A stretch of 64,000 nt of DNA from Patescibacteria group bacterium (lineage in GTDB: Bacteria > Patescibacteriota > Patescibacteriia > UBA9934): the NCBI GenBank assembly GCA_041660165.1, contig JBAZWW010000001.1, positions 105,035 through 169,034 of the forward strand. The letters run 5' to 3'. Shown here piece by piece: positions 6,295 to 37,965 of this stretch (its first letter is position 1; every line of letters starts with the position of its first letter). The notes below the pieces were generated by a model. The model was not told where the DNA came from. It was given only the letters and a program-made list of their open reading frames with translations, and ran no database searches. A program made the translations under genes and the position numbers.

Positions 6295-6425
6295 GTGTCA
6301 TCCCGACGTAAGGAGGGATCTGAATTGGCAATCTGGATAATGCATCGACCAATCAGATCTCTCGGCCGTCGGACGGCCTCGAGATGACAACAACGCTCAG
6401 GCTGACGCTGAGACTCGGGACGACA
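6295..6425. repeat. Dispersed nested-palindrome repeat, copy A (MITE/REP-like)
   Basis: GTCATCCCGACG...GGGATCTGAATTGG..CCAATCAGATCTCTCGGCCGTCGGACGGCCTCGAGATGAC, directly after the eno stop. Confidence 0.6.
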
Positions 6426-9270: not shown

Positions 9271-9924
9271 ATGTCTTCTATGATTCATGGTCTTCGAATA
9301 GTTTTTATAGCCTTGATCGGAACAGCCCTGGCAGGATTTCTTTTGCTGTTTTCGGTTATTATGATCGAGGGGAAACGGCATGATGTGAAGGCTGATCTTC
9401 AGGCCATTGCTCCGCAGAATGTAGCGATTGTTTTTGGCGCAGGAATCAAACGAGACAATACGCCATCTGATGCCTTAGAAGATAGGTTGATCGTAGCGGC
9501 GAGGCTCTATCATGCTGGTCAGGTCAAAACGATTCTTGTTTCCGGCGACAACCGATTTAAAAATTATTCCGAGCCGGACGTGATGCGGGATGCGCTTGTT
9601 GAGCGCATGGGCGTAGATGCAAAAGACATTCAGGCTGATTACGCCGGACGCCGGACGTATGACACTTGTATTCGAGCAAAAAAACTTTGGGGAGTTGATC
9701 ACGCCATTCTAATTTCACAAGATTTTCATCTTCCGCGAGCCATCTGGACCTGTGATAAATTAGGTATTGAAAGTTCCGGCGCTTCAGCCTCACTCCGTCC
9801 CTACATGTTTGCCGTGGATTATCGTGCTCGAGAAATTCTGGCCGATCTGAACGCCTTTATTAACGTCTATATTTGGCATCCTGGGTACGTGGGAGGGGAG
9901 TTTGTGACGGATATTGATCCGTAA
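9271..9924 (+). CDS. sanA: SanA/YdcF (DUF218) family envelope protein
   Basis: N-terminal TM segment, then IVFGAGI...LVSGDNRFKNYSEPDVMRD...ILISQDFHLPRA, characteristic of SanA/DUF218. Confidence 0.75.
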   Translation: MSSMIHGLRIVFIALIGTALAGFLLLFSVIMIEGKRHDVKADLQAIAPQNVAIVFGAGIKRDNTPSDALEDRLIVAARLYHAGQVKTILVSGDNRFKNYSEPDVMRDALVERMGVDAKDIQADYAGRRTYDTCIRAKKLWGVDHAILISQDFHLPRAIWTCDKLGIESSGASASLRPYMFAVDYRAREILADLNAFINVYIWHPGYVGGEFVTDIDP

Positions 9925-9983
9925 TTGAAACACCCCGCCGTTAGCGACCCATGGGGGCGTTTCATCGGCGGGATGACGGCGGG
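9925..9983 (+). repeat. Island boundary repeat, copy 1
   Basis: TTGAAACACCCCGCCGTTAGCGACCCATGGGGGCGTTTC starts directly at the sanA stop. It differs by 2 mismatches in 39 nt from the copy at 12768. Confidence 0.6.
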
Positions 9984-10011
9984 AGGCTTAGGCGCATGGC
10001 CCGAAGCCTCA

Positions 10012-10431
10012 CCAGAAGTGATTCCGTAAGGCATGGCAGGTAGCTGCCAAAAGCTGGCTAAGCTTTTTTCTGGCCCGTATATTTCTAAGCTCTGAGGGTT
10101 GCGCCGGTGAAGCAGGATATTCGGTGAGAACTTCCGGCACCGGGCGCGGAATGAAACGCACGACGCAGTCACGGATCAGCCCTTCCAGGCTGACTCCCAT
10201 GCGCTCCTGTCCGCGCTCCGACCAGGTGATGCGCACGCGGACGGGGGCGCCGTTTGAGCGTTCGTGCTTTGGCCTGTACTTGATGACGATGTCGTCCGGC
10301 TTGCAGGGGAACCCGGCGGTAGTACAGACCGCGCTCAGCTCTTTCTGCAGACGGGCTTGTTGATGGCCGGTCAGCACATCCATACTCCATTGCACGTCTC
10401 CCAAGCAGTTGAGGATTTCAACAGTGGGCAT
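10012..10431 (-). CDS. Hypothetical protein with 4-OT/tautomerase-like N-terminus
   Basis: Starts MPTVEILNCLGDV... (a Pro-1 pattern). A strong AGGGAGGG Shine-Dalgarno lies 5 nt upstream. The gene is GC-rich. The ORF-track extension to 10683 is probably spurious. Confidence 0.4.
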
Positions 10432-10490
10432 TGGACCCTCCCTGGCGTGTTGAGAAGCGATTACACGCGAACAAAATACGCCTCCCACGT

Positions 10491-10550
10491 AAAGCGTCAA
10501 GTACAAAACACCCCGCCTGCGCGCGATCCTCGGTCGAGGTGTTTCGCGGT
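10491..10550 (+). repeat. Island repeat, copy 1b
   Basis: GTACAAAACACCCCGCC...GGTGTTTCGCGGTAGCGGGGTG. Confidence 0.5.
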
Positions 10551-10583
10551 AGCGGGGTGCAGGTGATGGTTGTGGGATGGCGG

Positions 10584-10958
10584 CTACATCCCGAGACAGG
10601 CCTTTTCGATGACTCCATTTTTGACGATGAAGTCGGTTCCCGAGTTCGGATCGATGTAGACGATTCCAGCGTCCCTCGGCCAATCTGCATGAAGAGTGGC
10701 GTAGGTTACGGCGACGAGCACAAGATCGGTTCGAAGAGTAGCTAGCGGTTCGTCCGTCTTGATTGCTTCTACGACGCCGTATGCATGATCCGTTCCTTTG
10801 CGGGTGATACGCACGACTCGATGCAGATCGTATTCAACTATGACACCGCCCGCTGACCAGACGATGCTTTTGAGGAGTGGAACAGGCAGGTGGCGATGGC
10901 TACGACCACATGCATCAAGGTAGTAGTGGATACATTCTTGAACGAGTGTAAATTCCAT
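10584..10958 (-). CDS. Hypothetical protein, 124 aa, GC-rich
   Basis: Reasonable amino-acid composition. GGAG lies 5 nt upstream of the MEFTLVQE start, and a TATACT -10-like box is further upstream. Confidence 0.4.
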   Translation of the reverse strand: MEFTLVQECIHYYLDACGRSHRHLPVPLLKSIVWSAGGVIVEYDLHRVVRITRKGTDHAYGVVEAIKTDEPLATLRTDLVLVAVTYATLHADWPRDAGIVYIDPNSGTDFIVKNGVIEKACLGM

Positions 10959-11110
10959 GGGGTCTCCATATCGAACCATTCAGTATAGCAAAAAAATACG
11001 AATTTGTCAATAATTCCGCTAACATTAGATAGAAAAACTACCAAGAGCTCCTCAGCGAACGCTAGTCAAAGACCATTGAAAAACAAGTGCCGGTCTTTCA
11101 ATACGCATAA

Positions 11111-11182
11111 TGTACATTTTGTTCAAATTGAAACACCCCGCTCGTCAGCTGGCCCGGAGGGGTGTTTCGCTGTGGCGGGGCG
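11111..11182 (+). repeat. Island repeat, copy 2
   Basis: TGTACATTTTGTTCAAATTGAAACACCCCGC-loop-GGGGTGTTTCGCTGTGGCGGGGCG. Confidence 0.6.
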
Positions 11183-11207
11183 TACGTGGCAGATGCCAGT
11201 AGTCGAG

Positions 11208-11549
11208 CTACGCGCTCGTGGGCGCAGGGGCCTTGATGGCCAGGAGCTCTTCGACCGTTTTTTCGATGATCTGGTCGAGCAGTCCGCCGGGCGCGGTGAT
11301 CTGCTCCAGGGTGACCGGCTTCATTCGCTTGAGGTCGTCGTAGACGTCCTCCATGAGGTCGAGAGTTGCGCCGACCTTGAGCGGGATGTCGTTCACGGCG
11401 AGCACATTGATCGTTTCGATCTCGCGGACGATGCCCTGCATGGGCGTCTCGCCGTTCGCCGACACCTCGGCGCAGAAGCGCGTGATGCAGGAGCGGATGA
11501 AGGCCGTGATCATGGCAACTTCTTCGGGGATGAGACCTGACGGTGGCAT
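11208..11549 (-). CDS. Hypothetical protein B, 113 aa, paralogous to the adjacent gene
   Basis: A GGAG Shine-Dalgarno precedes the start. Its C-terminus ...LLDQIIEKTVEELLAIKAPAPTSA resembles ...VLDQLRSEITAIKIPEPANV of the upstream gene. Confidence 0.55.
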   Translation of the reverse strand: MPPSGLIPEEVAMITAFIRSCITRFCAEVSANGETPMQGIVREIETINVLAVNDIPLKVGATLDLMEDVYDDLKRMKPVTLEQITAPGGLLDQIIEKTVEELLAIKAPAPTSA

Positions 11550-11622
11550 GAAAACTCCAATAGGCGGATTGCCTGCCTATAAAGTAAGCATTTTTTTGCA
11601 CCCAGTCAACGGTAGACCCTGG

Positions 11623-11955
11623 CTAGACGTTGGCCGGCTCAGGAATCTTGATAGCCGTGATTTCCGACCGGAGCTGGTCGAGCACGGTGTTGATTGCGTC
11701 CCTGAACTCTTCGATCGTTTTCGGGGCCAGGACCGCCAGCTCCACGTAGCACTGCCGGTGGAACCCAAGGTAGCGTTCTTGGAGGGTGGTGGGCTTGTCG
11801 TCGAGTATCTGGTCAATCATCCGGATGACGGTCCAGATCTTGTCGACGGGTTGGCTCTTTTCCTTATCGATCGTTTGTCCCAGCCGAATCGCCGACGAAG
11901 CGAACGTGTCGAAGTGCCCGTCCAATTCCTTCAAAGTGACGTCAATCGGTTGCAT
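11623..11955 (-). CDS. Hypothetical protein A, 110 aa, paralogous to the downstream gene
   Basis: A strong GGAGG Shine-Dalgarno lies 4 nt upstream. The protein is non-repetitive and of balanced composition. Confidence 0.6.
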   Translation of the reverse strand: MQPIDVTLKELDGHFDTFASSAIRLGQTIDKEKSQPVDKIWTVIRMIDQILDDKPTTLQERYLGFHRQCYVELAVLAPKTIEEFRDAINTVLDQLRSEITAIKIPEPANV

Positions 11956-12039
11956 GAGACCTCCGTGAGCATGGCTCCTGGAAAGGGTAGGCGTTTGCTT
12001 CTACCGCGTCAACGGTGTTTGGTTATTGATTAAATATAT

Positions 12040-12095
12040 TACATAAGATGCTTATGTATTTTTTGAATGGGTAATTTGTACAAATTGTACAAATT
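12040..12095. promoter_or_regulatory. Promoter/operator region of higBA with two palindromes
   Basis: TACATAAG-atg-CTTATGTA (12040-12058) and AATTTGTACAAATTGTACAAATT (12073-12095) lie 55-110 bp upstream of higB. Confidence 0.4.
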
Positions 12096-12125
12096 GAAAC
12101 ACCCCGTCGATAGCAGCCATCATTC
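12073..12125 (+). repeat. Island repeat, copy 3 (left half only)
   Basis: AATTTGTACAAATTGTACAAATTGAAACACCCCGTCG... has no matching right arm. Confidence 0.4.
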
Positions 12126-12168
12126 GGCCATTGACACATAGTAACGCGTGGCGTTATCATTGGAACGT

Positions 12169-12453
12169 ATGATTCAATCGTTCGCCGATGCAGATACGAA
12201 GCATATTTTCCAACGGGATCTCATTAAGAGGTTTCCAACGTGGCTGCAGAAGATTGCGTTAAGAAAACTTCTGCATATTCACGCCGCTCACCGGCTTGAT
12301 GATCTGAAAGTCCCGCCGGGTAATCGTCTTGAGAAACTCAAAGGCAAGGACGGAGACAAGCACAGCATCCGAGTAAACGATCAATGGCGGTTGCGCTTCA
12401 AATGGAAAGATAGCGACGCCTATGAAGTTTGTTTAATCGATTACCACGACTAA
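12169..12453 (+). CDS. higB: HigB toxin (RelE/ParE superfamily)
   Basis: MIQSF....PPGNRLEKLKGKDGDKHSIRVNDQWRLRFKWKDSDAYEVCLIDYHD matches the HigB killer-protein consensus. The ORF-track GTG start at 12148 is trimmed to the ATG. Confidence 0.8.
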   Translation: MIQSFADADTKHIFQRDLIKRFPTWLQKIALRKLLHIHAAHRLDDLKVPPGNRLEKLKGKDGDKHSIRVNDQWRLRFKWKDSDAYEVCLIDYHD

Positions 12454-12454
12454 T

Positions 12455-12751
12455 ATGAAAAAACAAAAACCCATTCATCCTGGCGAAATCCTCCTTGAAG
12501 ATTTTCTTCTGGCGATGGAGATCACTCAGTATCGTTTGGCAAAGGATATTAGCGTGCCTGCTCGCCGAATCAACGAAATCGTTCACGGCAACCGCGCCAT
12601 TAGCCCGGACACCGCGCTTCGACTGGCAAAGTATTTTGGCACCAGTCCCGAATTCTGGATGAATCTCCAGGCTCATTATGATCTTGAGCTACTCAATGAG
12701 AGTTGGTCGAAAACCATCGAGAAACAGGTGCGAGTATTTCAACCGGCGTAA
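12455..12751 (+). CDS. higA: HigA antitoxin (XRE-type HTH)
   Basis: IHPGEILLEDFL...ITQYRLAKDISVPARRINEIVHGNRAISPDTALRLAKYFGTSPEFWMNLQ is the canonical HigA sequence. The gene begins 2 nt after the higB stop. Confidence 0.85.
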   Translation: MKKQKPIHPGEILLEDFLLAMEITQYRLAKDISVPARRINEIVHGNRAISPDTALRLAKYFGTSPEFWMNLQAHYDLELLNESWSKTIEKQVRVFQPA

Positions 12752-12767
12752 AGTACAATTTGTACAA

Positions 12768-12822
12768 AATGAAACACCCCGCCGTTAGCGACCCATGGGG
12801 GTGTTTCGCTGTGGCGGGGTGA
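12768..12822 (+). repeat. Island boundary repeat, copy 4
   Basis: ATGAAACACCCCGCCGTTAGCGACCCATGGGGGTGTTTCGCTGTGGCGGGGTG, preceded by AATTTGTACAAAA. Confidence 0.6.
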
Positions 12823-12854
12823 CGAAGGAGATACGTTTCGCGGACGTTGGAGCG

Positions 12855-19023: not shown

Positions 19024-20517
19024 ATGACTATCAATATTGAGCGGGGGACGGCGGGGACGGCGGGAGCGAATCTGCTAGTGATTCCGATTTTTGGGGGGAA
19101 GACGTTTACGCTGAAGAGCATCAAGGGGATTCCGGATGATATGTTTGATAGATTTTTGGTGCTGGCTGAGCGGGCCGAGTTTGCCGGCAAAGCGAATGAG
19201 ACGGTCTATCTTCAGTTGCCGGTTGGCAGAAATGCTGACGGTATTCTCGTCATCGGTCTGGGCGAGAAGGGGAAGGACGTAGCGGGTGCGGTGCGCGAGG
19301 TTGTGGGGACGGCGGGAGCATTTGCTCGCCGGGGCGGGATGAAATCCGTGGCGCTCATCCTGCCGAAGGAACTGGCGAAAGCGAATGTCATTGACGCGAT
19401 TGCTACGGCGATTCATCTGGGCGAGTACTCATTCGACATGTACAAAAAAGAGCCGAGCAAAAAGCATCTCGATTCATTTTCGATTGTTATCGAGGACAGG
19501 AAGCAGTTGCTGGCGTTCAGAAAAATTGTCGAGCACGCCGAGACGGTATGTGACGGCGTCACGGTGGCGCGAGACCTGGTCAACACGCCCGCGCAGGAGA
19601 TGACGCCTACGCATTTGGCGGAAGCGGCGTTGGAAATTGCTAAAGTCTCAAACGAGCTCATTACCGTCAAAATCCTCGACGCCAAGGAATGCAAAGCGTT
19701 GGGCATGGGCGCCTATCTAGCGGTGGCGCAGGGGAGTGACGAAGCGCCAAAGTTCATTCACTTGATTTACACCTCGCCAAGACCCTCAAAAAAGACGATC
19801 GCCGTTGTCGGCAAAGGAATCACTTTTGATTCGGGTGGTCTGTCGCTCAAGCCGGCTGACGGCATGATGACCATGAAGTGCGACATGGCTGGCGCGGCCT
19901 CAGTGCTTGGCTTCTTTGCCACGTTGTCGCGGATCAAACCGCGCGTTAATATTCACGGCGTGATCGCTGCCACTGAAAATATGCCGAGCGGGAAAGCCAT
20001 TCGGCCAGGCGACATTGTGAAATCCATGAATGGAAAAACCGTCGAGATCCTGAATACCGATGCTGAAGGACGCCTCGTCCTCGCCGATTCCATGACGTAC
20101 ATCCAGCGCGAAGTGAAACTCGACGCCATGGTTGACCTGGCAACACTCACCGGTGCTGTTGTCGTAGCTCTCGGCGAAGAAGTTTCCGGCGTCATGGGCA
20201 ATGACAAAAAATTGATGAAAGAAATATTGTCGAGCGCCGGTTTGGTTGGCGAACAAACATGGGAATTACCGCTCGTTGAAAGGTACTCAGTACTTATGAA
20301 GTCCGAGCACGCTGATCTAAAAAATATTTCGAGTACAAAATACGGCGGATGCCTAACCGCCGGCTCTTTCCTGGCCGAATTTGTTGAGAACACTCCCTGG
20401 GTTCACTGGGACATTGCCGGCCCGGCCTTTGCAGAAAAGCCCCTGTCGAGCTATCTCGGCAAGGGCGGGACTGGTTTTGGGGTACGAACACTAGTCGAAT
20501 GGGTTCGTGAGATGTAA
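19024..20517 (+). CDS. pepA: Leucyl aminopeptidase (M17)
   Basis: VGKGITFDSGG and NTDAEGRL motifs identify the M17 family. Confidence 0.9.
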   Translation: MTINIERGTAGTAGANLLVIPIFGGKTFTLKSIKGIPDDMFDRFLVLAERAEFAGKANETVYLQLPVGRNADGILVIGLGEKGKDVAGAVREVVGTAGAFARRGGMKSVALILPKELAKANVIDAIATAIHLGEYSFDMYKKEPSKKHLDSFSIVIEDRKQLLAFRKIVEHAETVCDGVTVARDLVNTPAQEMTPTHLAEAALEIAKVSNELITVKILDAKECKALGMGAYLAVAQGSDEAPKFIHLIYTSPRPSKKTIAVVGKGITFDSGGLSLKPADGMMTMKCDMAGAASVLGFFATLSRIKPRVNIHGVIAATENMPSGKAIRPGDIVKSMNGKTVEILNTDAEGRLVLADSMTYIQREVKLDAMVDLATLTGAVVVALGEEVSGVMGNDKKLMKEILSSAGLVGEQTWELPLVERYSVLMKSEHADLKNISSTKYGGCLTAGSFLAEFVENTPWVHWDIAGPAFAEKPLSSYLGKGGTGFGVRTLVEWVREM

Positions 20518-20607
20518 TCCCATCCTGAGTGCAACTGTCATCTCGAGCAAAGCGAGAGATCCGCATTGGCCGGCCAATCAGATCCCTCCTCACGTCGGGA
20601 TGACATT
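20518..20607. repeat. Dispersed nested-palindrome repeat, copy B
   Basis: TCCCATCCTGAG...GAGATCCGCATTGGCCGGCCAATCAGATCCCTCCTCACGTCGGGATGAC. It fills the gap between convergent pepA and the peroxiredoxin gene. Confidence 0.6.
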
Positions 20608-23084: not shown

Positions 23085-23185
23085 GTCATCCTGAGGAGCT
23101 TTCAGCGACGAAGGAGCTGATTGGTCGCTCAGATTGGACCGACGTATTCGACCCTGACGTAAGGAAGGGTCTAGAGGTGGCGGAT
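23085..23185. repeat. Dispersed repeat copy C, ending in the short hairpin unit GACCCTGACGTAAGGAAGGGTCTAGAGGTGGCGG
   Basis: It starts with the GTCATCCTGAGGAGCTTTCAGCGA terminal inverted repeat shared with copy P. Confidence 0.55.
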
Positions 23186-23198
23186 TGGATAAAGAATT

Positions 23199-23561
23199 AT
23201 GAAATATCGCGGGCTACTACTTAAAGAGGGGCTAACCGACGAGACGATTCTCAATGATCTTGTTATTACAAAAACCGATTATTGGGATGTAAAAAATTCC
23301 TCGGCAGATCAGCCCAAGCAATGGACCGCTGTTTCATTTGAAGTCGAAGGAGATCGAGCTGACGTCATTGCGGAAAACCTAAGCAATGTTCTGAAGCCAA
23401 CGGGCTGGTACCTAAACATGAATAGCAATGATACGGTTATGGTTGTATTTCCGGGGAAGGTTTTTAAATATCTTAAGGGGGATAGCGCAAAACGTGCTGA
23501 AGCTATAGAATTCGGAAGGAGCATCGAGATTCCGGATAGTCAGCTCGATTGGGAGGAATAA
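23199..23561 (+). CDS. Hypothetical 120-aa protein flanked by 34-bp inverted repeats
   Basis: Clean ORF of ordinary composition. No family recognised. Confidence 0.5.
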   Translation: MKYRGLLLKEGLTDETILNDLVITKTDYWDVKNSSADQPKQWTAVSFEVEGDRADVIAENLSNVLKPTGWYLNMNSNDTVMVVFPGKVFKYLKGDSAKRAEAIEFGRSIEIPDSQLDWEE

Positions 23562-23562
23562 C

Positions 23563-23598
23563 CACCGCCTCTAGACCCTTCCTCACGTCAGGGTCTGG
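23563..23598. repeat. Inverted copy of the short hairpin unit (CCACCGCCTCTAGACCCTTCCTCACGTCAGGGTC)
   Basis: It is the reverse complement of 23149-23182, with 2-3 mismatches. Confidence 0.55.
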
Positions 23599-23627: not shown

Positions 23628-25067
23628 ATGCCCAATTATTACATCACCACAACGCTTCCGTACGTTAACGCTGATCCGCATATTGGCCATGCGATTGAGT
23701 TCATTCAGGCGGATGCGATTGCTCGATATCGACGGTCACTCGGGGACGAGGTCATTTTTAATACCGGTACAGACGAGCACGGGCAGAAGATTTATAAGAA
23801 GGCGCTTGAGCTTGGCGTCGAACCGAAAATCTATTGCGACATGTTCGCGGTGAAATTTGAGGCACTCCGCGAGTCTCTGAATTTATCGTACACGAACTTC
23901 ATTCGCACTACTGACCCGAAGCATATTGCGGCGGCTCAGGAATTCTGGAAGCGTTGTGATGCGTCCGGCGATATCTATAAGAAGCAATATCAAACGAAGT
24001 ATTGCGTCGGTTGCGAGCTCGAAAAGACGGACTCGGATCTCGTTGACGGTAAGTGTCCGGTGCACCCAAAGATGGAGATTGAAATGCGTGATGAGGAAAA
24101 CTACTTCTTCCGCTGGTCAAAGTATGAGAAAGCAATTATCGACTATTACGCTGAGCATCCCGATTTTGTTGTTCCCAAAGAAAAGTTCAATGAAATTAAA
24201 AACTTTGTAAAAGGCGGGCTGAACGATTTTAGTATCTCGCGCCTCAAAGAAAAGATGCCGTGGGGCATTGCAGTGCCCGGTGATGAAGATCATGTCATGT
24301 ACGTGTGGTTTGATGCGCTCGTCAATTACATTTCCACGCTCGACTGGCCAGCCAAGGGAAACTTTGAAAAGTTTTGGCCTGGCGTTCAAGTGGCCGGCAT
24401 AGACAATCTGAGACAGCAGAGCGCCATGTGGCAGGGGATGCTTTTCTCGGCCGGTTTGCCAATGAGCAAACAGATTTTTATTCACTCGTTCATCACCGTG
24501 AACGGCCAGAAGATGAGCAAGTCGCTTGGCAACGTGATTAACCCGAAGGATCTCGTTGAGAAATACGGAACTGATGCGGTTCGTTATTTCTTGTTGCGCG
24601 AAATGCCGTACGGGACTGACGGGGACTATTCTGAGATGCGGATGGAGGAACGATACAACGAACTCGCAAATAACCTTGGCAACCTGGCCGGCCGGGTAGC
24701 TGCTATGGCGAACAAATATTTTGACGGCATGGTCGGCGAGGTACCGTTCGGCCATACTGATCTCGACGCTTCACTCGACGCCTCCATGCGCGAGTACAAT
24801 TTCAAGCAATATATCGAGCATGTGTGGACGGTGGTTGATTCTGCGAATCATAAAATCGACGTTGAAGCTCCCTTCAGACTCGTCAAAACAGATCCCGACG
24901 GCGCTAAGAAATCCCTGGCCGAGCTGGCGTCCATGATCCGCTGGATCGCCACGTCTCTTGCCCCGATTATTCCTGGCACCTCAGCAGAGATCCTAAAGAG
25001 ATATACTAGTGAGCGGTTGATTCACGGAGAGCCGTTGTTTCCGAAGAGGGACGCGAAGTCATCCTGA
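23628..25067 (+). CDS. metG: Methionyl-tRNA synthetase (short form)
   Basis: PYVNADPHIGHA (HIGH motif), KMSKSLGN (KMSKS motif) and a CxxC...CP zinc knuckle. Confidence 0.9.
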   Translation: MPNYYITTTLPYVNADPHIGHAIEFIQADAIARYRRSLGDEVIFNTGTDEHGQKIYKKALELGVEPKIYCDMFAVKFEALRESLNLSYTNFIRTTDPKHIAAAQEFWKRCDASGDIYKKQYQTKYCVGCELEKTDSDLVDGKCPVHPKMEIEMRDEENYFFRWSKYEKAIIDYYAEHPDFVVPKEKFNEIKNFVKGGLNDFSISRLKEKMPWGIAVPGDEDHVMYVWFDALVNYISTLDWPAKGNFEKFWPGVQVAGIDNLRQQSAMWQGMLFSAGLPMSKQIFIHSFITVNGQKMSKSLGNVINPKDLVEKYGTDAVRYFLLREMPYGTDGDYSEMRMEERYNELANNLGNLAGRVAAMANKYFDGMVGEVPFGHTDLDASLDASMREYNFKQYIEHVWTVVDSANHKIDVEAPFRLVKTDPDGAKKSLAELASMIRWIATSLAPIIPGTSAEILKRYTSERLIHGEPLFPKRDAKSS

Positions 25068-25170
25068 CGCACTGTCATCCCGAGCAGAGCGAGGGATCTG
25101 AATTGGCCGGCCAATGCAGATCTCTCGGCCGTCGGACGGCCTCGAGATGACAATTACGCTCAGGATGACA
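25058..25170. repeat. Dispersed nested-palindrome repeat, copy D
   Basis: GTCATCCTGACGCACTGTCATCCCGAGCAGAGCGAGGGATCTGAATTGGCCGGCCAATGCAGATCTCTCGGCCGTCGGACGGCCTCGAGATGACAATTACGCTCAGGATGAC. It shows outer and inner inverted-repeat pairs. Confidence 0.65.
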
Positions 25171-25675: not shown

Positions 25676-25775
25676 CGTCCCACCCCGACGTGAGGAGGGG
25701 TAGCATGGAGGCCGTTGGATCAGATCGAATTTCAGTAACCAATTCGACCCCTCCTTACGTCGGGGTGGGAACCAT
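25676..25775. repeat. Dispersed repeat copy E (CCCACCCCGACG variant)
   Basis: TCCCACCCCGACGTGAGGAGGGGTAGC...GACCCCTCCTTACGTCGGGGTGGGAACC, a compensated-arm variant. Confidence 0.6.
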
Positions 25776-25794: not shown

Positions 25795-26670
25795 ATGAAA
25801 TTTATAGACACTCACTGTCACGTTCACTTCCAGGCCTACAAGGATGACATGGATGAGGTTGTTAAACGCTCGCTTGGAAAAGGCGTGGGCATGATTACGG
25901 TTGGGACGCAATCGACCACGAGTAAGAACGGCATCGCACTCGCCGAAAGGTATGACGGCGTGTGGTGTACCATCGGTCTCCACCCGAACCACCTGCATGC
26001 GCAAGAATTCCTCGATGAGGATGAGCTACCGGCTTTAGACCCCGACGCCAGGAGGGGCCTAGAGGTGGTTGCTACGAAAATCAAAACTCGCGCTGAAAAA
26101 TTTGACGCCGAGTATTACAAACCGCTCGTGACTCATCCGAAGGTTGTAGCTATCGGCGAGTTTGGACTCGACTATTTCCGCGTTCCGCCGAGCGTGAACC
26201 TTGAACAATTAAAATTCGATCAAGCCAGTGCTGTGCGCGAGCAGTTGCGCTTTGCCTCGCAATTCAACAAACCGATTGTTATCCATTGCCGTGACGCCCA
26301 CGCTGATCAGTGGCAACTGCTGAAGGAGGAAATTGACAGAGGTGGGATCGCCAAGAGGGGAGTAATCCACTGCTTCACGGGTACCGCCGAGGAAGCCTCG
26401 AAATATCGAGAGCTCGGTTTCCTTGTGTCATTTACCGGCATCGTTACCTTTGGCAAAAATGTTATGGCCACGGCCCGTGAGGTCCCGCTTGACCAAATCC
26501 TGATTGAAACTGATTCGCCATATCTCACCCCAGCGCCGAACAGAGGCAAGAGAAATGAACCGAGCAATGTGGTCTATGTTGCCGAGACGATTGCCAAGCT
26601 GAAGGGAATCTCAGTGGACGAGGTGGCGCGAGTAACGACGGAGAATGCGATGAAGCTTTTCGGGCTGTAG
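25795..26670 (+). CDS. tatD: TatD-family metal-dependent hydrolase
   Basis: FIDTHCHVHF metal-binding start and a conserved ...IETDSPYL block. The start is trimmed to MKFIDTHCH. Confidence 0.85.
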   Translation: MKFIDTHCHVHFQAYKDDMDEVVKRSLGKGVGMITVGTQSTTSKNGIALAERYDGVWCTIGLHPNHLHAQEFLDEDELPALDPDARRGLEVVATKIKTRAEKFDAEYYKPLVTHPKVVAIGEFGLDYFRVPPSVNLEQLKFDQASAVREQLRFASQFNKPIVIHCRDAHADQWQLLKEEIDRGGIAKRGVIHCFTGTAEEASKYRELGFLVSFTGIVTFGKNVMATAREVPLDQILIETDSPYLTPAPNRGKRNEPSNVVYVAETIAKLKGISVDEVARVTTENAMKLFGL

Positions 26671-33966: not shown

Positions 33967-34054
33967 TCAGGTTTCAGGTGTCAGGTATCAGGTTATTGAA
34001 TGGATTCTTCAAAGAATTTAGTCCTCAACCTGACACCTGAAACCTGACACCTGA
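33967..34054. repeat. Long inverted repeat between atpD and atpC
   Basis: TCAGGTTTCAGGTGTCAGGTATCAGGTT ... AACCTGACACCTGAAACCTGACACCTGA gives a stem of about 25-28 bp. Confidence 0.55.
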
Positions 34055-34060
34055 TGGAAT

Positions 34061-34559: not shown

Positions 34560-34886
34560 TCACGTGGCGTTCGCCCGGACAAGTTCGGCCACGAGTCTTG
34601 GTTTGAGCCACGGACTCGGGGTAATGAACTTGCTGATGTCATCGGGCAAAGGATCGCGGGCGTAGTCTGACAGCGGCAGGATGCGCGATTTCCTCGGGAC
34701 GGAACCGCGTTCCTCAGCGAGCTGGACGAAGATGTCTCCAGCTTCATCTACGCCGTAGTAGACCAAGAACGTGAATTTGGCGTCCATGTCTCCAGTCAGG
34801 TCCATTGCCTTCACGGTATCCACGCACACATGATGTGCGTCGGTCATCAGTTCGGGATACATGCCCGATTCTAGCGTATCTCCCAT
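34560..34886 (-). CDS. Hypothetical 108-aa protein, GC-rich
   Basis: AGGGAGG lies 7 nt upstream of the MGDTLESG start. It is divergent from uvrD. Confidence 0.5.
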   Translation of the reverse strand: MGDTLESGMYPELMTDAHHVCVDTVKAMDLTGDMDAKFTFLVYYGVDEAGDIFVQLAEERGSVPRKSRILPLSDYARDPLPDDISKFITPSPWLKPRLVAELVRANAT

Positions 34887-34950
34887 GAAACCTCCCTTAG
34901 GCAGAGCCCGTACTGACAATATTCCTTCTTCACACTACAATAGCCCGGCT

Positions 34951-37900
34951 ATGCCTGCAAACCCGCTTCTTGAAGATTTGAACCCTGAACAGCTGATGGC
35001 CGTGACCCACGGGGAAGGCCCGCTTATGATTATTGCTGGCGCGGGGACGGGAAAAACTACTGTGGTAACTAAGCGTATCGCGTGGTTGATCGAGCAGAAA
35101 TTGGCCGAGCCGAATGAGATCCTGGCGCTGACGTTTACGGATAAGGCGGCCAACGAAATGGAGGAACGCGTTGATCGATTATTACCGATGGGCTATCTCG
35201 ATCTTAGTATTTCGACATTCCATTCGTTCTGCGAGAAAGTTCTGCGCGAGCATGGAATTCACATTGGCATCCCCTCGGACTTTAAGCTGTATACCGAGGT
35301 TGATTGCTGGCTTTTGATGCGCCGAAATATTGATAGGTTCGAGCTCGACTATTTTAAGCCGAGGGGATCACCGACCAAGTTCCTTAGACAATTGCTTCAG
35401 CATTTTTCTCGCGCCAAGGATGAGGGAATCACGCCGGAGAAGTATCTGCTCGCCGTCGAGGAACTCGAATCAGTCATCCTGAGCGATGTTGTCATCTCGA
35501 GCGGAGCGAGAGATCTGATTGGCCAATCAAATCCCTCCTCACGTCGGGATGACAATGCGGTGAGCGACGAAGATCGGCTCGAACTTCAAAAGTGGCAGGA
35601 ACTTTCAAGTGCGTACGCCATGTATGAAACGTTGCTGTCTGAAAAGCACGCCATTGATTTTGGCGGGTTATTATTGCTGACGCTCGAGTTATTCAAAACT
35701 CGGCCGAACGTACTCGAGGAGTATAAGAAGCGGTTTAAATATATTATCGTCGACGAATTCCAGGACACGAATAGCATTCAGAATGAGCTCGTCAAAATCC
35801 TTGTTCACGAGCCGAGGAACATTACTGTCGTGGGCGACGACGACCAGGCCATTTATAAGTTTCGAGGCGCCGCTCTGGCAAACATTCTTGAGTTCAGAAC
35901 AGATTTTCCTGATGCATCTCGCGTGGTGCTGACTCGCAATTACCGAAGTGGAGCAACGATCCTCGACGCCGCTCACAAACTCATCCAGACAAACAACCCG
36001 CACCGGCTCGAAGCGAGCGAGGGACTCTCGAAAAAGCTTCAATCACAAACTGAGTCTGAGGGACTTGTCCGCCATTTGCACTGCGCCACTGCCGTTGAGG
36101 AGGTTGAGCAAGTTATTAAAGAAATCATCACGAAGCACGAGAGCGGGGAAGCGGAGTGGAGCGACTTTGCGATTCTGGCCAGATCGAATGACGCCGTTGA
36201 TCCGTTCCTTGAGGCCCTTGAACGCGCCGGCGTCCCGTATCATTTCGTGGCGCTCTCGGGTTTGTACACGAAGCCGATTATTCTTGATGCCATGGCGTAC
36301 ATGCGCGCGGTCTGCGAACCGTACCACTCGCCGGCGATGTATCGAATTTTGAGCCACCCCAGGCTCGGTCTCACTGAGGGTGACTTGTCCGAGCTGATGC
36401 GCTACGTTCGCCGAAAGTCTGGCGGAGCGATTATTGACGGCATGCGTTCACTCACTCAAGCGATTGGCATGTCGCTCGACGGACGCAATCGAGCCATGCA
36501 GATTACGACTATTATTGAGCAGTTGCGTGAGAAGGCCAAACGCCTACCAGTCACCGAGCTCTTCGTCTCGGTTCTCAAAGACACCGGTTTGCTTGGCGAC
36601 TTGAAAGTTCTCGCCGAACGAGACCAGCAGGAAAACTTCCGTCATCTCGAGGGCTTCCTGGCGCGTCTTAAGCGTTATGTAATCGCGAGTCCGGACAACA
36701 AGCTCCTCCCTGGTTTTCTCGAAGAGTTTGATGCCGAACGCGAGGCAGGGGAGGCTGGCGGATTACGGCCAGACGCCGAGGAAGGGCCGGACGTGGTGAA
36801 CGTCATGACGATTCACGCCGCTAAGGGGCTTGAGTTCAAATATGTGTTTGTCGTTAACATGATCGAGCAGAGATTTCCCTCGGTCTCACGCTCCGACCAA
36901 CTACCACTCCCGCCTGCGCTTGTTCGTAAGGTTGACGCTGCACTGGACGATCATGTAGCTGAGGAACGCCGGTTATTTTATGTGGCCATGACGCGAGCGA
37001 AAGAAGGTTTGTATCTTTGCTCGGCCGAGGATTACGGAGGTACCCGAAAACGCAAGCCGTCGAGATTCCTGGCCGAGCTCGGTTATCAAGCTCCGGTAGT
37101 CGAAAAGAAAAAAACGATCACGACCGATGATCTCCTCGATGAGCGCGCCGGCGGTAGGGACGAGGATCGAGCCATCCCCTCGTTGGCGCTCCCCACGAAA
37201 TTCTCCTTTTCGCAAATCGCCGCCTTTGGCAATTGTCCTCTGCAATACAAATACGCGCACATTCTCAAGATTCCCACCTTTGGCCGGCACCAGTTTAGCT
37301 TTGGCCAGAGCATGCACTTGACCCTTGAAAAGTTTGTAAAACGACTACTCGAGGCCGAGGGCAACACGCAAGTTTCATTGTTCGGTGCACCGCCGACTGC
37401 TCCCGTGCTACCGAGCGAACGAGAACTCCTCGAAATGTATTCAGCTTCATTTATTGACGAGTGGTACCCGGATTCAGCTACTCGTGAAAAGTATCGAGAA
37501 GAGGGCGTGAAGGCACTCAAGGAGTTTCACCGAAAAGTGGCCGAGAACACACCCAAACCACTCCTTCTCGAAGCTGGCTTCACTTTGAAGATCGGCGATA
37601 TCTTGATGAAGGGTCGGATCGACAGAATTGACTCGGTTGACGGCGGTGTCGAGATCATTGACTACAAGACTGGTCGAGCGAAAGAAAAACTCGAATGGGA
37701 CGACCGCCGACAGTTGTTGCTGTACGCGCTCGCCGGCGAGCAATGTTTTAATCCTCCACTCATCGTGAAAGCACTGACATATTATTACGTAGAGACAAAC
37801 CAGACCATGAGTTTTGCGCCAACAGAAAAGGACAAAGAAAAACTACTCGATGAGATTCAAGAGACAGTTGGTGGTATTCGAACGAGCTCGTTCGAGGCCA

Positions 37901-37965
37901 AGCCCGGACCGTTTACGTGCAAGTACTGTGATTTTAAAGATATTTGTCCGAAAGCTGAGCTGTAA
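34951..37965 (+). CDS. uvrD: UvrD/PcrA-type superfamily-1 DNA helicase with a C-terminal PD-(D/E)xK-like extension
   Basis: AGAGTGKTTV Walker A, VDEFQDTN motif II, and a downstream TIHAAKGLEFKYVFVV block. The start is at the MPANPLLEDLNPEQ ATG. Confidence 0.85.
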   Translation: MPANPLLEDLNPEQLMAVTHGEGPLMIIAGAGTGKTTVVTKRIAWLIEQKLAEPNEILALTFTDKAANEMEERVDRLLPMGYLDLSISTFHSFCEKVLREHGIHIGIPSDFKLYTEVDCWLLMRRNIDRFELDYFKPRGSPTKFLRQLLQHFSRAKDEGITPEKYLLAVEELESVILSDVVISSGARDLIGQSNPSSRRDDNAVSDEDRLELQKWQELSSAYAMYETLLSEKHAIDFGGLLLLTLELFKTRPNVLEEYKKRFKYIIVDEFQDTNSIQNELVKILVHEPRNITVVGDDDQAIYKFRGAALANILEFRTDFPDASRVVLTRNYRSGATILDAAHKLIQTNNPHRLEASEGLSKKLQSQTESEGLVRHLHCATAVEEVEQVIKEIITKHESGEAEWSDFAILARSNDAVDPFLEALERAGVPYHFVALSGLYTKPIILDAMAYMRAVCEPYHSPAMYRILSHPRLGLTEGDLSELMRYVRRKSGGAIIDGMRSLTQAIGMSLDGRNRAMQITTIIEQLREKAKRLPVTELFVSVLKDTGLLGDLKVLAERDQQENFRHLEGFLARLKRYVIASPDNKLLPGFLEEFDAEREAGEAGGLRPDAEEGPDVVNVMTIHAAKGLEFKYVFVVNMIEQRFPSVSRSDQLPLPPALVRKVDAALDDHVAEERRLFYVAMTRAKEGLYLCSAEDYGGTRKRKPSRFLAELGYQAPVVEKKKTITTDDLLDERAGGRDEDRAIPSLALPTKFSFSQIAAFGNCPLQYKYAHILKIPTFGRHQFSFGQSMHLTLEKFVKRLLEAEGNTQVSLFGAPPTAPVLPSERELLEMYSASFIDEWYPDSATREKYREEGVKALKEFHRKVAENTPKPLLLEAGFTLKIGDILMKGRIDRIDSVDGGVEIIDYKTGRAKEKLEWDDRRQLLLYALAGEQCFNPPLIVKALTYYYVETNQTMSFAPTEKDKEKLLDEIQETVGGIRTSSFEAKPGPFTCKYCDFKDICPKAEL
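35472..35555. repeat. Dispersed repeat copy K, inserted in-frame inside uvrD
   Basis: GTCATCCTGAGCGATGTTGTCATCTCGAGCGGAGCGAGAGATCTGATTGGCCAATCAAATCCCTCCTCACGTCGGGATGAC encodes ...SVILSDVVISSGARDLIGQSNPSSRRDD... with no stop codon. Confidence 0.6.

What the first reader, a model, noticed from the sequence alone, without database searches (positions are those of the whole stretch)
35472..35555. In-frame insertion of a dispersed-repeat copy inside the uvrD/pcrA coding sequence
An 84-bp copy of the repeat (GTCATCCTGAGCGATGTTGTCATCTCGAGC...CCTCACGTCGGGATGAC) lies within the helicase ORF. It is translated without any stop codon as ...SVILSDVVISSGARDLIGQSNPSSRRDDNAV... . This adds about 28 residues to the helicase, which is 1005 aa against about 730-750 typical. 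Either the element tolerates or was selected for an open frame in this orientation, or the helicase carries a recent non-disruptive insertion in a surface loop.
Basis: seen in the sequence. Interest (0 to 1): 0.6.

Follow-up and report, generated by a model that had tools for sequence, protein, structure and literature searches.

The report
Palindromic repeat inserted in-frame in helicase
A short selfish palindromic DNA repeat that litters this Patescibacteria genome has landed inside a DNA-repair helicase gene without breaking the reading frame, lengthening a variable surface loop; this kind of event is already documented in other bacteria, such as Rickettsia.

Summary
Window 35473-35554 holds an inverted dimer of a dispersed palindromic repeat inside the helicase ORF (34951-37965). 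It is translated without a stop as VILSDVVISSGARDLIGQSNPSSRRDDN.

All 77 aligned orthologues lack this peptide, including syntenic relatives at 81-87% identity. They carry a variable loop of 0-43 aa there (mode 16). The repeat is therefore an insertion.

Three details in the finding need correction:
- The net gain is 17 aa, because about 11 loop codons were lost.
- The length of about 1000 aa is normal for this family, which has a C-terminal PD-(D/E)XK nuclease domain.
- The site is in domain 1B, not 2B.

The repeat units (tgtc-ATCYC-GA…AG-GRGAT-ctg) fit most defining features of the CGTC/TGTC-tagged REP superfamily of Di Nocera et al. 2013. That superfamily includes Rickettsia RPE-4 and RPE-6 and is known to sit in-frame in repair genes, UvrD/REP helicases among them.

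The window has 21 such units, against none in 51.5 kb of the closest relatives' syntenic DNA.

Two further results: a second in-frame unit lies in TatD (26038-26068), and unrelated hairpin repeats occupy the same helicase loop in three other lineages.

Verdict: a new member of a known kind, of moderate-low interest.

The parts
34951..37965 (+). UvrD/PcrA-like helicase fused to a C-terminal PD-(D/E)XK nuclease domain (1004 aa, identical to P0001); this is the host gene
   Evidence: Pfam UvrD-helicase 7e-78, UvrD_C 9e-45, PDDEXK_1 1.9e-35. PDB PcrA 1.9e-94. Foldseek hits PcrA/UvrD and AddA/AdnB. P0001 is 100% identical.
35473..35554 (+). Intragenic composite REP element: an inverted dimer of TGTC-tagged hairpin units plus a partial outer head. 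It encodes V175-N202 of P0001.
   Evidence: It folds as a 66-nt hairpin: DNA -19.9 kcal/mol (z -3.0), RNA -39.5 kcal/mol (z -3.2).
35473..35485 (+). Partial outer copy of the unit head (GTCATCCTGAGCG). The same feature is present in the intergenic copies at 20520, 6406(-) and 25058/25169.
   Evidence: Alignment; pairwise alignments. The same partial 5' copy occurs next to many units in other phyla.
35490..35517 (+). Unit A: tgtc-ATCTC-GA-GC-GGA-GC-GA-GAGAT-ctg (5-bp stem, tandem G.A, GC-GNA-GC mini-hairpin)
   Evidence: unit 35494-35514 with tag and tail; structure.
35528..35554 (-). Unit B, inverted: tgtc-ATCCC-GA-C-GTGA-G-GA-GGGAT-ttg (8-position stem, 4-nt loop)
   Evidence: unit 35531-35550, minus strand. 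The same unit type is found in 83 metagenome stretches.
35467..35568 (+). Whole segment with no homology to the closest orthologues (about 33 codons here against 16, 16 and 11 codons in L001, L002 and L003)
   Evidence: Codon-level DNA alignment with syntenic loci; protein alignments.
20520..20605 (+). Closest full intergenic copy of the same composite element, lying between the convergent pepA and peroxiredoxin genes
   Evidence: 82% identity and same module order; flanking genes.
6296..6406 (-). Intergenic copy (enolase / PIF1-like helicase spacer)
25058..25169 (+). Intergenic copy (metG / cvpA spacer), with partial heads at both ends
26038..26068 (+). Second intragenic REP in the window: a single unit of a sister sub-family, in-frame in TatD, encoding ~DPDARRGLEVV
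   Evidence: The pattern has 3 matches (23150+, 23565-, 26038+) against 0 expected. The TatD alignment shows a variable loop at this site.

Best explanation
Window 35473-35554 is an inverted dimer of a short palindromic repeat of the CGTC/TGTC-tagged REP type, the same superfamily as Rickettsia RPE-4 and RPE-6. The family proliferated recently in this Patescibacteria lineage, almost entirely in intergenic spacers. One copy entered the helicase-nuclease gene. It survived for three reasons: the net length change is a multiple of three (+51 nt), the frame it landed in is one of the two of six frames that are open, and the site is a length-variable loop at the tip of a helical hairpin in domain 1B. 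The protein therefore most likely remains functional with a 17-aa longer, probably disordered, loop. Shown: repeat identity, absence from orthologues, open frame, position and variability of the loop, lineage-specific proliferation, and presence in two assemblies. Inferred: that the change is (near-)neutral; that insertion was accompanied or followed by loss of about 11 ancestral codons; and the mobilisation mechanism, which is unknown. The literature reports no dedicated transposase for this REP class, and none was seen in the window ORFs scanned.
For: Repeat identity and excess over chance. Open frame, 2 of 6 frames open. All 77 aligned orthologues lack the peptide, and loop length ranges from 0 to 43 aa with mode 16. 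Codon-level alignment with three syntenic relatives places the non-homologous block at 35467-35568. Relatives have 0-10 nt spacers in the atp operon where the window has 95-135 nt filled with units. There are 21 units in the window and 0 in L001-L003. The PcrA alignment breaks at residues 173-176. In the AlphaFold model (mean pLDDT 86.7) the insert is the end of helix 162-183 plus a coil at 184-205 with pLDDT 51-66, between two long helices. Column conservation is 0.18 in the loop against 0.64-0.70 on either side. The same 1004-aa protein, insert included, is 1003/1004 identical in a second MAG. Unit architecture matches most of the published definition of CGTC REPs, and that paper lists intragenic copies in UvrD/REP helicases and recB; a CGTC-1 unit encodes DPGLRRDD against NPSSRRDD here. 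Independent precedents at the same loop in L207, L208 and L209.
Against: No empty-site allele from a near-identical strain is available; polarity rests on orthologues at 87% identity or less. It is not a clean insertion, because about 11 loop codons are missing, so a replacement or recombination event cannot be excluded. No target-site duplication is visible and no transposase or RAYT was found in the roughly 45 window ORFs scanned, so mobility is inferred from distribution only. There is no expression or activity evidence that the helicase is functional. A -39.5 kcal/mol mRNA hairpin inside the ORF could have effects on translation that were not assessed.
Confidence: 0.85

Rival explanations
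1. The insertion is not neutral. It was retained because it changes helicase-nuclease behaviour, for example DNA binding by domain 1B, partner contacts or expression through the mRNA hairpin, giving an altered-repair or mutator phenotype as Di Nocera et al. speculated for REP-tagged repair genes.
For: Intragenic REPs are reported to be over-represented in replication and repair genes, including UvrD/REP and recBCD. In this window the two intragenic copies are both in DNA-metabolism enzymes, the helicase-nuclease and the TatD DNase. The same helicase loop carries unrelated repeats in three other lineages.
Against: The loop is the least conserved part of the region and ranges from 0 to 43 aa, so no constraint is evident. 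The insert is modelled mostly as low-confidence coil. In L209 the same repeat also sits in TatD and in a second helicase loop, which fits general permissiveness better than a specific function. No functional data exist.
Confidence: 0.1
2. The segment is ancestral coding sequence, or the source from which the intergenic copies arose, and not an insertion.
For: None beyond the shared sequence itself.
Against: It is absent from all 77 aligned orthologues, including three syntenic relatives. The same units occur in many phyla in non-coding DNA. A 44-aa query spanning the peptide found no other protein.
Confidence: 0.02
3. It is an assembly artefact, with a repeat collapsed or mis-joined into the gene, or the gene is a decaying pseudogene.
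For: Repeats are classic sites of MAG mis-assembly, and the source is a metagenome bin.
Against: A second MAG on a different contig (242 kb against 265 kb) encodes the same 1004-aa protein with 1003/1004 identity, insert included. Flanks on both sides continue in frame with full-length homology and all helicase and nuclease motifs intact. Net length is a multiple of three.
Confidence: 0.03

Closest known systems
CGTC-tagged REPs (CGTC-1 to CGTC-4; Di Nocera, De Gregorio & Rocco 2013, PMC3733652)
   Same: End tag CGTC, often TGTC. Stem of 8-9 positions beginning AT. Loops of 4-5 nt. Short unpaired tail. Mostly inverted dimers located just downstream of genes. No associated transposase. Intragenic in-frame copies occur, with dimers encoding 20-30 aa, including in UvrD/REP helicases (R. 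palustris RPE_2137, K. olearia Kole_1028) and recB. A CGTC-1 unit encodes DPGLRRDD, against NPSSRRDD here.
   Different: The tail is CTG (or AGC in the TCCC-tagged subtype) instead of the CCA consensus. Stems contain a tandem G.A mismatch. About half the window units carry TCCC rather than C/TGTC. The host is a Patescibacteria MAG, and I did not find this phylum named in the passages I read, which say only that five phyla carry the family. A partial outer head copy is part of the composite element.
Rickettsia palindromic elements (RPE; Ogata et al. 2000, as summarised in PMC10969869 and PMC3733652)
   Same: Palindromic selfish DNA inserted in-frame in housekeeping genes, adding a peptide at a structurally tolerant site. 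RPE-4 and RPE-6 are classed as CGTC REPs.
   Different: RPE-1 type elements are about 150 bp and hit dozens of genes per genome. Here the element is 82 nt and only 2 of about 15 repeat sites in 64 kb are intragenic. Direct sequence homology to RPEs was not tested.
GTAG-headed REPs / REPINs mobilised by RAYT transposases (Nunvar et al. 2010, PMC2817692; Bertels & Rainey)
   Same: A conserved 5' head followed by an imperfect palindrome, often with a GCGNAGC-type loop. Inverted doublets form a long hairpin. High copy number and intergenic location.
   Different: The head is TGTC or TCCC, not GTAG or GTGG. No RAYT gene was found in the window ORFs scanned. The class this element resembles is reported to lack a dedicated transposase.
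Bacterial MITEs that form in-frame fusions (ERIC, BOX, QMITE1, Anabaena MITEs; review PMC10969869)
   Same: Small non-autonomous repeats with terminal inverted repeats (GTCATCCYGA...TCGGGATGAC) that occasionally sit inside ORFs in frame.
   Different: No target-site duplication and no parent IS were identified. The unit is a 25-30 nt hairpin used singly or in pairs, which is REP-like rather than IS-derived.
d(GCGNAGC) / d(GCGNNAGC) mini-hairpin DNA (review PMC13037366)
   Same: Across phyla the apex of the type-a unit is GC-GNA-GC: loops GCA, GTA, GAA and GGA account for 118 of 144 cases. Type b has C-GNNA-G.
   Different: That is a structural motif and not a genetic element. It suggests only that the units are selected as single-stranded DNA or RNA hairpins.

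Membership tests
CGTC/TGTC-tagged REP superfamily (Di Nocera 2013) | Terminal tetranucleotide tag CGTC (TGTC or CCTC variants accepted) | tested here: met
   11 of 21 window units, including both helicase units, carry tgtc immediately 5' of the stem. In other phyla the same unit carries tgtc or cgtc. Ten window units carry tccc or ttcc, a variant not listed in the paper.
CGTC/TGTC-tagged REP superfamily (Di Nocera 2013) | Stem of 8-9 positions beginning with complementary A-T, T-A; loop of 4-5 nt | tested here: met
   Unit B is ATCCCGAC-GTGA-GGAGGGAT (8 + 4). Unit A is ATCTCGAG-CGGAG-CGAGAGAT (8 + 5). Positions 6-7 are G.A/A.G rather than Watson-Crick pairs. Some window units start AC...GT.
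CGTC/TGTC-tagged REP superfamily (Di Nocera 2013) | Short unpaired 3' tail, consensus CCA | tested here: inconclusive
   A 3-nt tail is present but reads CTG (TGTC subtype) or AGC/AGA (TCCC subtype), not CCA. The paper says 'most' tails fit CCA.
CGTC/TGTC-tagged REP superfamily (Di Nocera 2013) | Predominantly inverted dimers; mostly intergenic, close to the 3' ends of ORFs | tested here: met
   There are four composite inverted dimers (6296, 20520, 25058, 35473) plus paired units at 25682/25747, 32483/32550, 37982/38054 and 47545/47598. Nearly all abut stop codons. I did not resolve whether they are 'HH' or 'TT' in the paper's nomenclature; the tags face outward.
CGTC/TGTC-tagged REP superfamily (Di Nocera 2013) | No flanking dedicated transposase | tested here: met
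   No Y1_Tnp or any other transposase domain was found in about 45 window ORFs. This is a weak test, because only 64 kb of the genome was examined.
GTAG REP / REPIN-RAYT system | GTAG (or GTGG) head and a cognate RAYT gene flanked by REPs | tested here: not met
   The head is TGTC or TCCC. The only ORF flanked by inverted units (23199-23561) has no Y1 transposase signature.
MITE (IS-derived) | Terminal inverted repeats plus target-site duplication and a related autonomous IS | tested here: not met
   TIRs are present (GTCATCCYGA / TCRGGATGAC). No direct duplication is seen at the four composite copies (flanks). No IS was found in the window ORFs scanned.
Rickettsia palindromic elements (RPE) | Sequence homology to RPE-1 to RPE-10 consensus sequences | not tested
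The link is indirect, through the paper's assignment of RPE-4 and RPE-6 to CGTC REPs.
UvrD/PcrA/Rep SF1A helicase (host gene) | UvrD-helicase and UvrD_C domains with conserved motifs; fold similarity to PcrA/UvrD | tested here: met
   Pfam results; PcrA E-value 1.9e-94; Foldseek 5.6e-45 to 1pjr. The additional PDDEXK_1 domain makes it an AddA/AdnB-like helicase-nuclease and not a classical 730-aa UvrD.
Any Rfam RNA family | Covariance-model match at gathering score | tested here: not met
   No match in the window. No match to the hairpin in eight loci from other phyla.

The most novel reading that the evidence does not exclude
Palindromic repeats may not land in this helicase by chance. Among 78 orthologues of this CPR helicase-nuclease, all four with a 1B loop longer than 17 aa (the window, P0068, P0104, P0115) carry hairpin-repeat DNA there, from unrelated repeat families. 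The three checked also carry repeats in a second loop of the nuclease domain. In the window, the only other intragenic copy is in the TatD DNase. If enzymes that process hairpin or damaged DNA are preferential targets, or if the insertions are selected because they tune repair, this would link REP biology to repair-gene evolution in reduced genomes, as Di Nocera et al. speculated.
Probability: 0.1. Interest if true: 0.7.

Novelty: new member of a known kind. Interest (0 to 1): 0.35.

Why it matters
The finding adds a Patescibacteria (CPR) example to the known phenomenon of selfish palindromic DNA inside protein-coding genes, first described for Rickettsia RPEs and for intragenic REPs.

It also shows how recently such elements can spread. 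Relatives at 85-87% protein identity have almost no intergenic DNA at sites where this genome now has 95-135 nt of hairpins.

There are three practical consequences:
- These repeats create false N-terminal extensions and spurious ORFs in CPR annotations.
- They mark loops that tolerate insertions, which is useful for protein engineering of UvrD-like helicases.
- Their repeated presence in repair genes gives a concrete, testable case for the old question of whether that bias is targeting, selection or mere tolerance.

Tried and rejected
- Rfam at gathering thresholds gave no match on the window, and no match to the hairpin in eight loci from other phyla.
- A literal-sequence search of the literature for six variants of the unit returned only unrelated primer hits.
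- A CPR-plus-palindrome keyword search found nothing relevant.
- A 44-aa query spanning the insert found no protein in the 5.8-billion-sequence database. Even the parent protein did not score, so this says little. Two earlier attempts failed on parameter limits.
- The look-up of the second MAG's contig (P0121) found no record, so the nucleotide sequence of its insert could not be compared.
- I looked for target-site duplications at the four composite copies and saw none.
- I looked for a transposase or RAYT in about 45 window ORFs and found none.
- I prepared a Pfam scan of 150 ORFs next to the motif in other phyla but dropped it. With one RAYT per genome and hundreds of REPs, a negative result would be uninformative.
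- A blastp screen of about 25 syntenic genes for window-specific insertions of 6 aa or more flagged only the helicase. It missed the 5-aa net TatD insertion, which was found later.
- Rejected: the idea that the protein's length of about 1000 aa reflects the insertion.
- Rejected: placement of the insertion in domain 2B.
Full report
**1. The observation**

Window 35473-35554 reads GTCATCCTGAGCGATGTTGTCATCTCGAGCGGAGCGAGAGATCTGATTGGCCAATCAAATCCCTCCTCACGTCGGGATGACA. It lies inside the long + strand ORF 34861-37965. The annotated product, P0001, starts at 34951 and is 1004 aa. In the gene's frame the segment is translated as VILSDVVISSGARDLIGQSNPSSRRDDN, which is V175-N202 of P0001, with no stop codon.

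The segment is a genuine member of a dispersed repeat.
- Its first 30 nt recur at 6377-6406(-) with 3 mismatches, against 0 expected by chance.
- It aligns module by module with intergenic copies at 20520-20605 (82% identity), 6296-6406 and 25058-25169.

**2. Anatomy of the element**

The core, roughly 35489-35555, folds into one long hairpin. The energy is -19.9 kcal/mol as DNA (z -3.0) and -39.5 kcal/mol as RNA (z -3.2).

The core is an inverted dimer of two short hairpin units with their tags facing outward:
- Unit A is tgtc-ATCTC-GA-GC-GGA-GC-GA-GAGAT-ctg.
- Unit B, on the minus strand, is tgtc-ATCCC-GA-C-GTGA-G-GA-GGGAT-ttg.

The two units are joined by the small palindrome ATTGGCCAAT. 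They are preceded by a partial copy of the head, GTCATCCTGAGCG.

A structural definition of the unit (5-bp stem A[TC]C[CT]C / G[AG]G[AG]T, with tandem GA on both sides) gave these counts:
- 21 units in the 64-kb window;
- none in ten shuffles of the window;
- none in the 51.5 kb of the three closest relatives' syntenic loci.

All but the two helicase units lie in intergenic spacers, typically abutting stop codons. The additional TatD copy described in section 8 belongs to a sister sub-family that this definition does not capture.

**3. It is an insertion and not ancestral sequence**

The closest homologues are P0002 (87%), P0003 (85%) and P0004 (81%). They come from syntenic loci with the order atp operon, helicase, mreB, mreC. 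None of these three, nor any of the other 74 orthologues in the alignment, has the peptide.

At this position the orthologues carry a poorly conserved loop. It is most often 16 aa (VASKSGGAPEAFASMA) and ranges from 0 to 43 aa. Mean column conservation is 0.18 in the loop, against 0.70 and 0.64 on the two sides.

A codon-level DNA alignment shows homology lost after GAACTCG (35466) and regained at GACGAAGAT (35569). The window has 33 codons there against 16 in the nearest relatives, so the net gain is 17 aa. Only about 5 non-repeat residues (ES... and ...AVS) remain of the loop, so about 11 ancestral codons were lost at or after the insertion.

A second MAG encodes the same 1004-aa protein with 1003/1004 identity, insert included. 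This argues against an assembly artefact.

**4. The host protein and the site**

The protein has three Pfam domains: UvrD-helicase, UvrD_C and a C-terminal PDDEXK_1 nuclease domain. Members of this Patescibacteria family are typically 977-981 aa. The "1005 against 730-750" argument in the finding is therefore explained by the nuclease domain and not by the repeat.

The phmmer alignment to PcrA splits exactly at the insert. Query residues 35-210 align to PcrA 7-176, and query residues 248-740 align to PcrA 173-641. From my own knowledge of the published domain boundaries of PcrA, UvrD and Rep, residues of about 90-200 form domain 1B. The site is therefore in 1B, not in 2B or a linker.

An AlphaFold2 model built on 78 sequences has mean pLDDT 86.7. 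It shows two long helices, 162-183 and 206-231. The first nine inserted residues extend the first helix. The rest of the insert is coil, with block pLDDT of 66 and 51. Foldseek confirms the PcrA/UvrD core and resemblance to AddA/AdnB.

**5. Why the insertion was tolerated**

Only 2 of the element's 6 reading frames are open, and the frame in use is one of them. The net length change, +51 nt, is a multiple of three. The site is the most length-variable stretch of the N-terminal half of the protein. Nothing requires selection for an open frame. Purifying selection simply removes the disruptive insertions. Consistent with this, only one composite element and one single unit are intragenic among about 15 repeat-bearing sites in the window.

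**6. The spread was recent and lineage-specific**

The relatives' atpA/atpG, atpG/atpD and helicase/downstream-gene junctions have spacers of 0-10 nt. In the window the same junctions carry 95-135 nt made of these hairpins.

**7. What the repeat is**

Two pattern scans show that the same units occur far outside this lineage.
The hosts include Acidobacteriota, Gemmatimonadota, Reyranella, Lysobacterales, Legionella, Chlamydiae, Pontibacter, Anaerolineales and a Portnoybacteria genome.
- The flanks, which were not part of the pattern, are also conserved (tGT before the unit, CT after it). The loop is GNA in 118 of 144 cases. Inverted doublets and an upstream partial head copy are common, as in the window element.
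- The type-b pattern ATCCCTCCTNACGTCGGGATGAC occurs in 83 metagenome stretches. There the stems covary (ATCCC/GGGAT, ATTCC/GGAAT, ATTTC/GAAAT, ATCTC/GAGAT).

Rfam has no matching family.

The literature does describe this class. Di Nocera et al. 2013 (PMC3733652) define CGTC-tagged REPs by the following features:
[quoted passage not shown] - loops of 4-5 nt;
- a 3-nt tail;
- predominance of dimers;
- no dedicated transposase;
- Rickettsia RPE-4 and RPE-6 are counted as members.

They also report intragenic copies, in which dimers encode 20-30 aa. These copies are notably frequent in replication and repair genes. Their supplementary table lists CGTC units in the UvrD/REP helicases of R. palustris and K. 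olearia and in a recB homologue. It also lists a CGTC-1 unit that encodes DPGLRRDD, which compares with NPSSRRDD here.

The window units meet the tag, stem, loop, dimer and no-transposase criteria. The tail is CTG rather than CCA, and about half the units carry a TCCC tag. I therefore treat the window repeats as a variant sub-family within that superfamily.

GTAG-REP/RAYT membership is not met: the head is different, and no Y1 transposase was found in the window ORFs scanned. Classical MITE membership is not met either: there is no target-site duplication and no parent IS.

The GC-GNA-GC apex corresponds to the exceptionally stable d(GCGNAGC) mini-hairpin (PMC13037366). This suggests the units act, or are propagated, as single-stranded hairpins.

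**8. Additional results**

(a) The window contains a second intragenic REP. GACCCCGACGCCAGGAGGGGCCTAGAGGTGG at 26038-26068 lies in-frame in TatD. Its sister copies are at 23150(+) and 23565(-), giving 3 matches against 0 expected. It encodes ~DPDARRGLEVV in a loop that differs in length among TatD orthologues.

(b) The same 1B loop of the helicase holds unrelated hairpin repeats in other lineages.
- In L207 (P0104, 43-aa loop), a copy of the repeat also lies intergenic at 19384-19417.
- In L209 (P0068, 24-aa loop), the same repeat is also in-frame in that genome's TatD and in a second helicase loop.
- In L208 (P0115, 21-aa loop), a copy lies in the nuclease-domain loop of the same gene.
- All four orthologues with a loop longer than 17 aa are therefore repeat-derived.

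(c) Locus L161, from an unrelated metagenome, has a 934-aa U32 peptidase ORF containing an in-frame block of GGGATGAC-type units.

These cases show that in-frame hairpin insertions into permissive loops are recurrent. The simplest reading is tolerance. The published speculation that repair genes are special targets remains open.

**9. Verdict**

The finding is real and its core interpretation is correct. It is an intragenic, in-frame dimer of a CGTC/TGTC-type REP in a variable 1B loop of a UvrD-like helicase-nuclease. This is a new example, in Patescibacteria, of a phenomenon documented since 2000 for RPEs and since 2013 for intragenic REPs. The mechanism of mobilisation is unknown, here as in the literature. 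Functional neutrality is inferred and has not been shown.

Noticed in passing
window 26038-26068 (TatD gene, about 25795-26670): A second in-frame REP: a single unit of a sister sub-family (GACCCYGACGNNAGGARGGGYCTAGAGGTGG), also found at 23150(+) and 23565(-). It encodes ~DPDARRGLEVV in a variable TatD loop. The L209 TatD carries a different hairpin repeat at the same loop.
   Followed up: yes
L207 10511-10639, L208 10514-10576, L209 10511-10582 (orthologous helicases): Unrelated hairpin repeats, encoding for example PLRKGEGRKDSPPPYEGG, NPPESPLGKEG and QPSPSYGEDGGG, sit in-frame in the same 1B loop. Copies also lie elsewhere in each locus: intergenic 19384-19417 in L207; TatD 2253-2287 and helicase 12348-12378 in L209; helicase 12329-12356 in L208. 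A second permissive loop exists in the nuclease domain.
   Followed up: yes
genome loci L004-L123 and metagenome loci L124-L203: The 27-nt unit tGTCATCCCGAGCGNAGCGAGGGATCT is nearly identical across many phyla. It often occurs as inverted doublets and with a truncated head copy (tgtcatcccgag...) a few bases upstream. Why the sequence itself, and not just the fold, is so conserved across phyla is not explained.
   Followed up: partly
L161 4114-6915: A 934-aa peptidase U32 / DUF3656 ORF contains a block of roughly 100 aa made of GGGATGAC-type units read in frame (...CRDDGLCRDDGASGDD...DPSLRRDDGASGDD...). It is either an in-frame insertion or a fusion of two adjacent genes through an open repeat array.
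   Followed up: partly
window 33967-34060 (atpD/atpC spacer): A different palindromic insertion (GTCAGGTTTCAGGTGTCAGGT ... ACCTGACACCTGAAACCTGAC) fills a spacer that is only a few nucleotides long in relatives L001 and L002.
   Followed up: no
window 9923-12830: Four copies of a repeat of about 60-100 nt (…TTGTACAAATTGAAACACCCCGC…GGGGTGTTTCGCTGTGGCGGGG) separate small ORFs, including a HigB/HigA-like toxin-antitoxin pair (12148-12751). The layout resembles a cassette array with attC-like imperfect palindromes.
   Followed up: no
window 23150-23595: Two inverted REP units flank a 120-aa ORF (23199-23561) in a REPtron-like arrangement. The ORF has no transposase signature; its best Pfam hits are insignificant.
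   Followed up: partly
window 38014, 25690, 25114, 31555 (ORF starts): The longest-ORF starts of several genes (the gene after the helicase, TatD, cvpA, atpG) fall inside REP units and give false N-terminal extensions such as MKFVTILVQRHPCYPSCRRGGNHPNY. This is an annotation hazard in this genome.
   Followed up: partly
helicase residues C762, C990, C993, C999 (P0001 numbering): Four cysteines are invariant across 78 family members in the PD-(D/E)XK domain. From my own knowledge this arrangement recalls the Fe-S cluster cysteines of AddB/Cas4-type nucleases; this was not tested.
   Followed up: no
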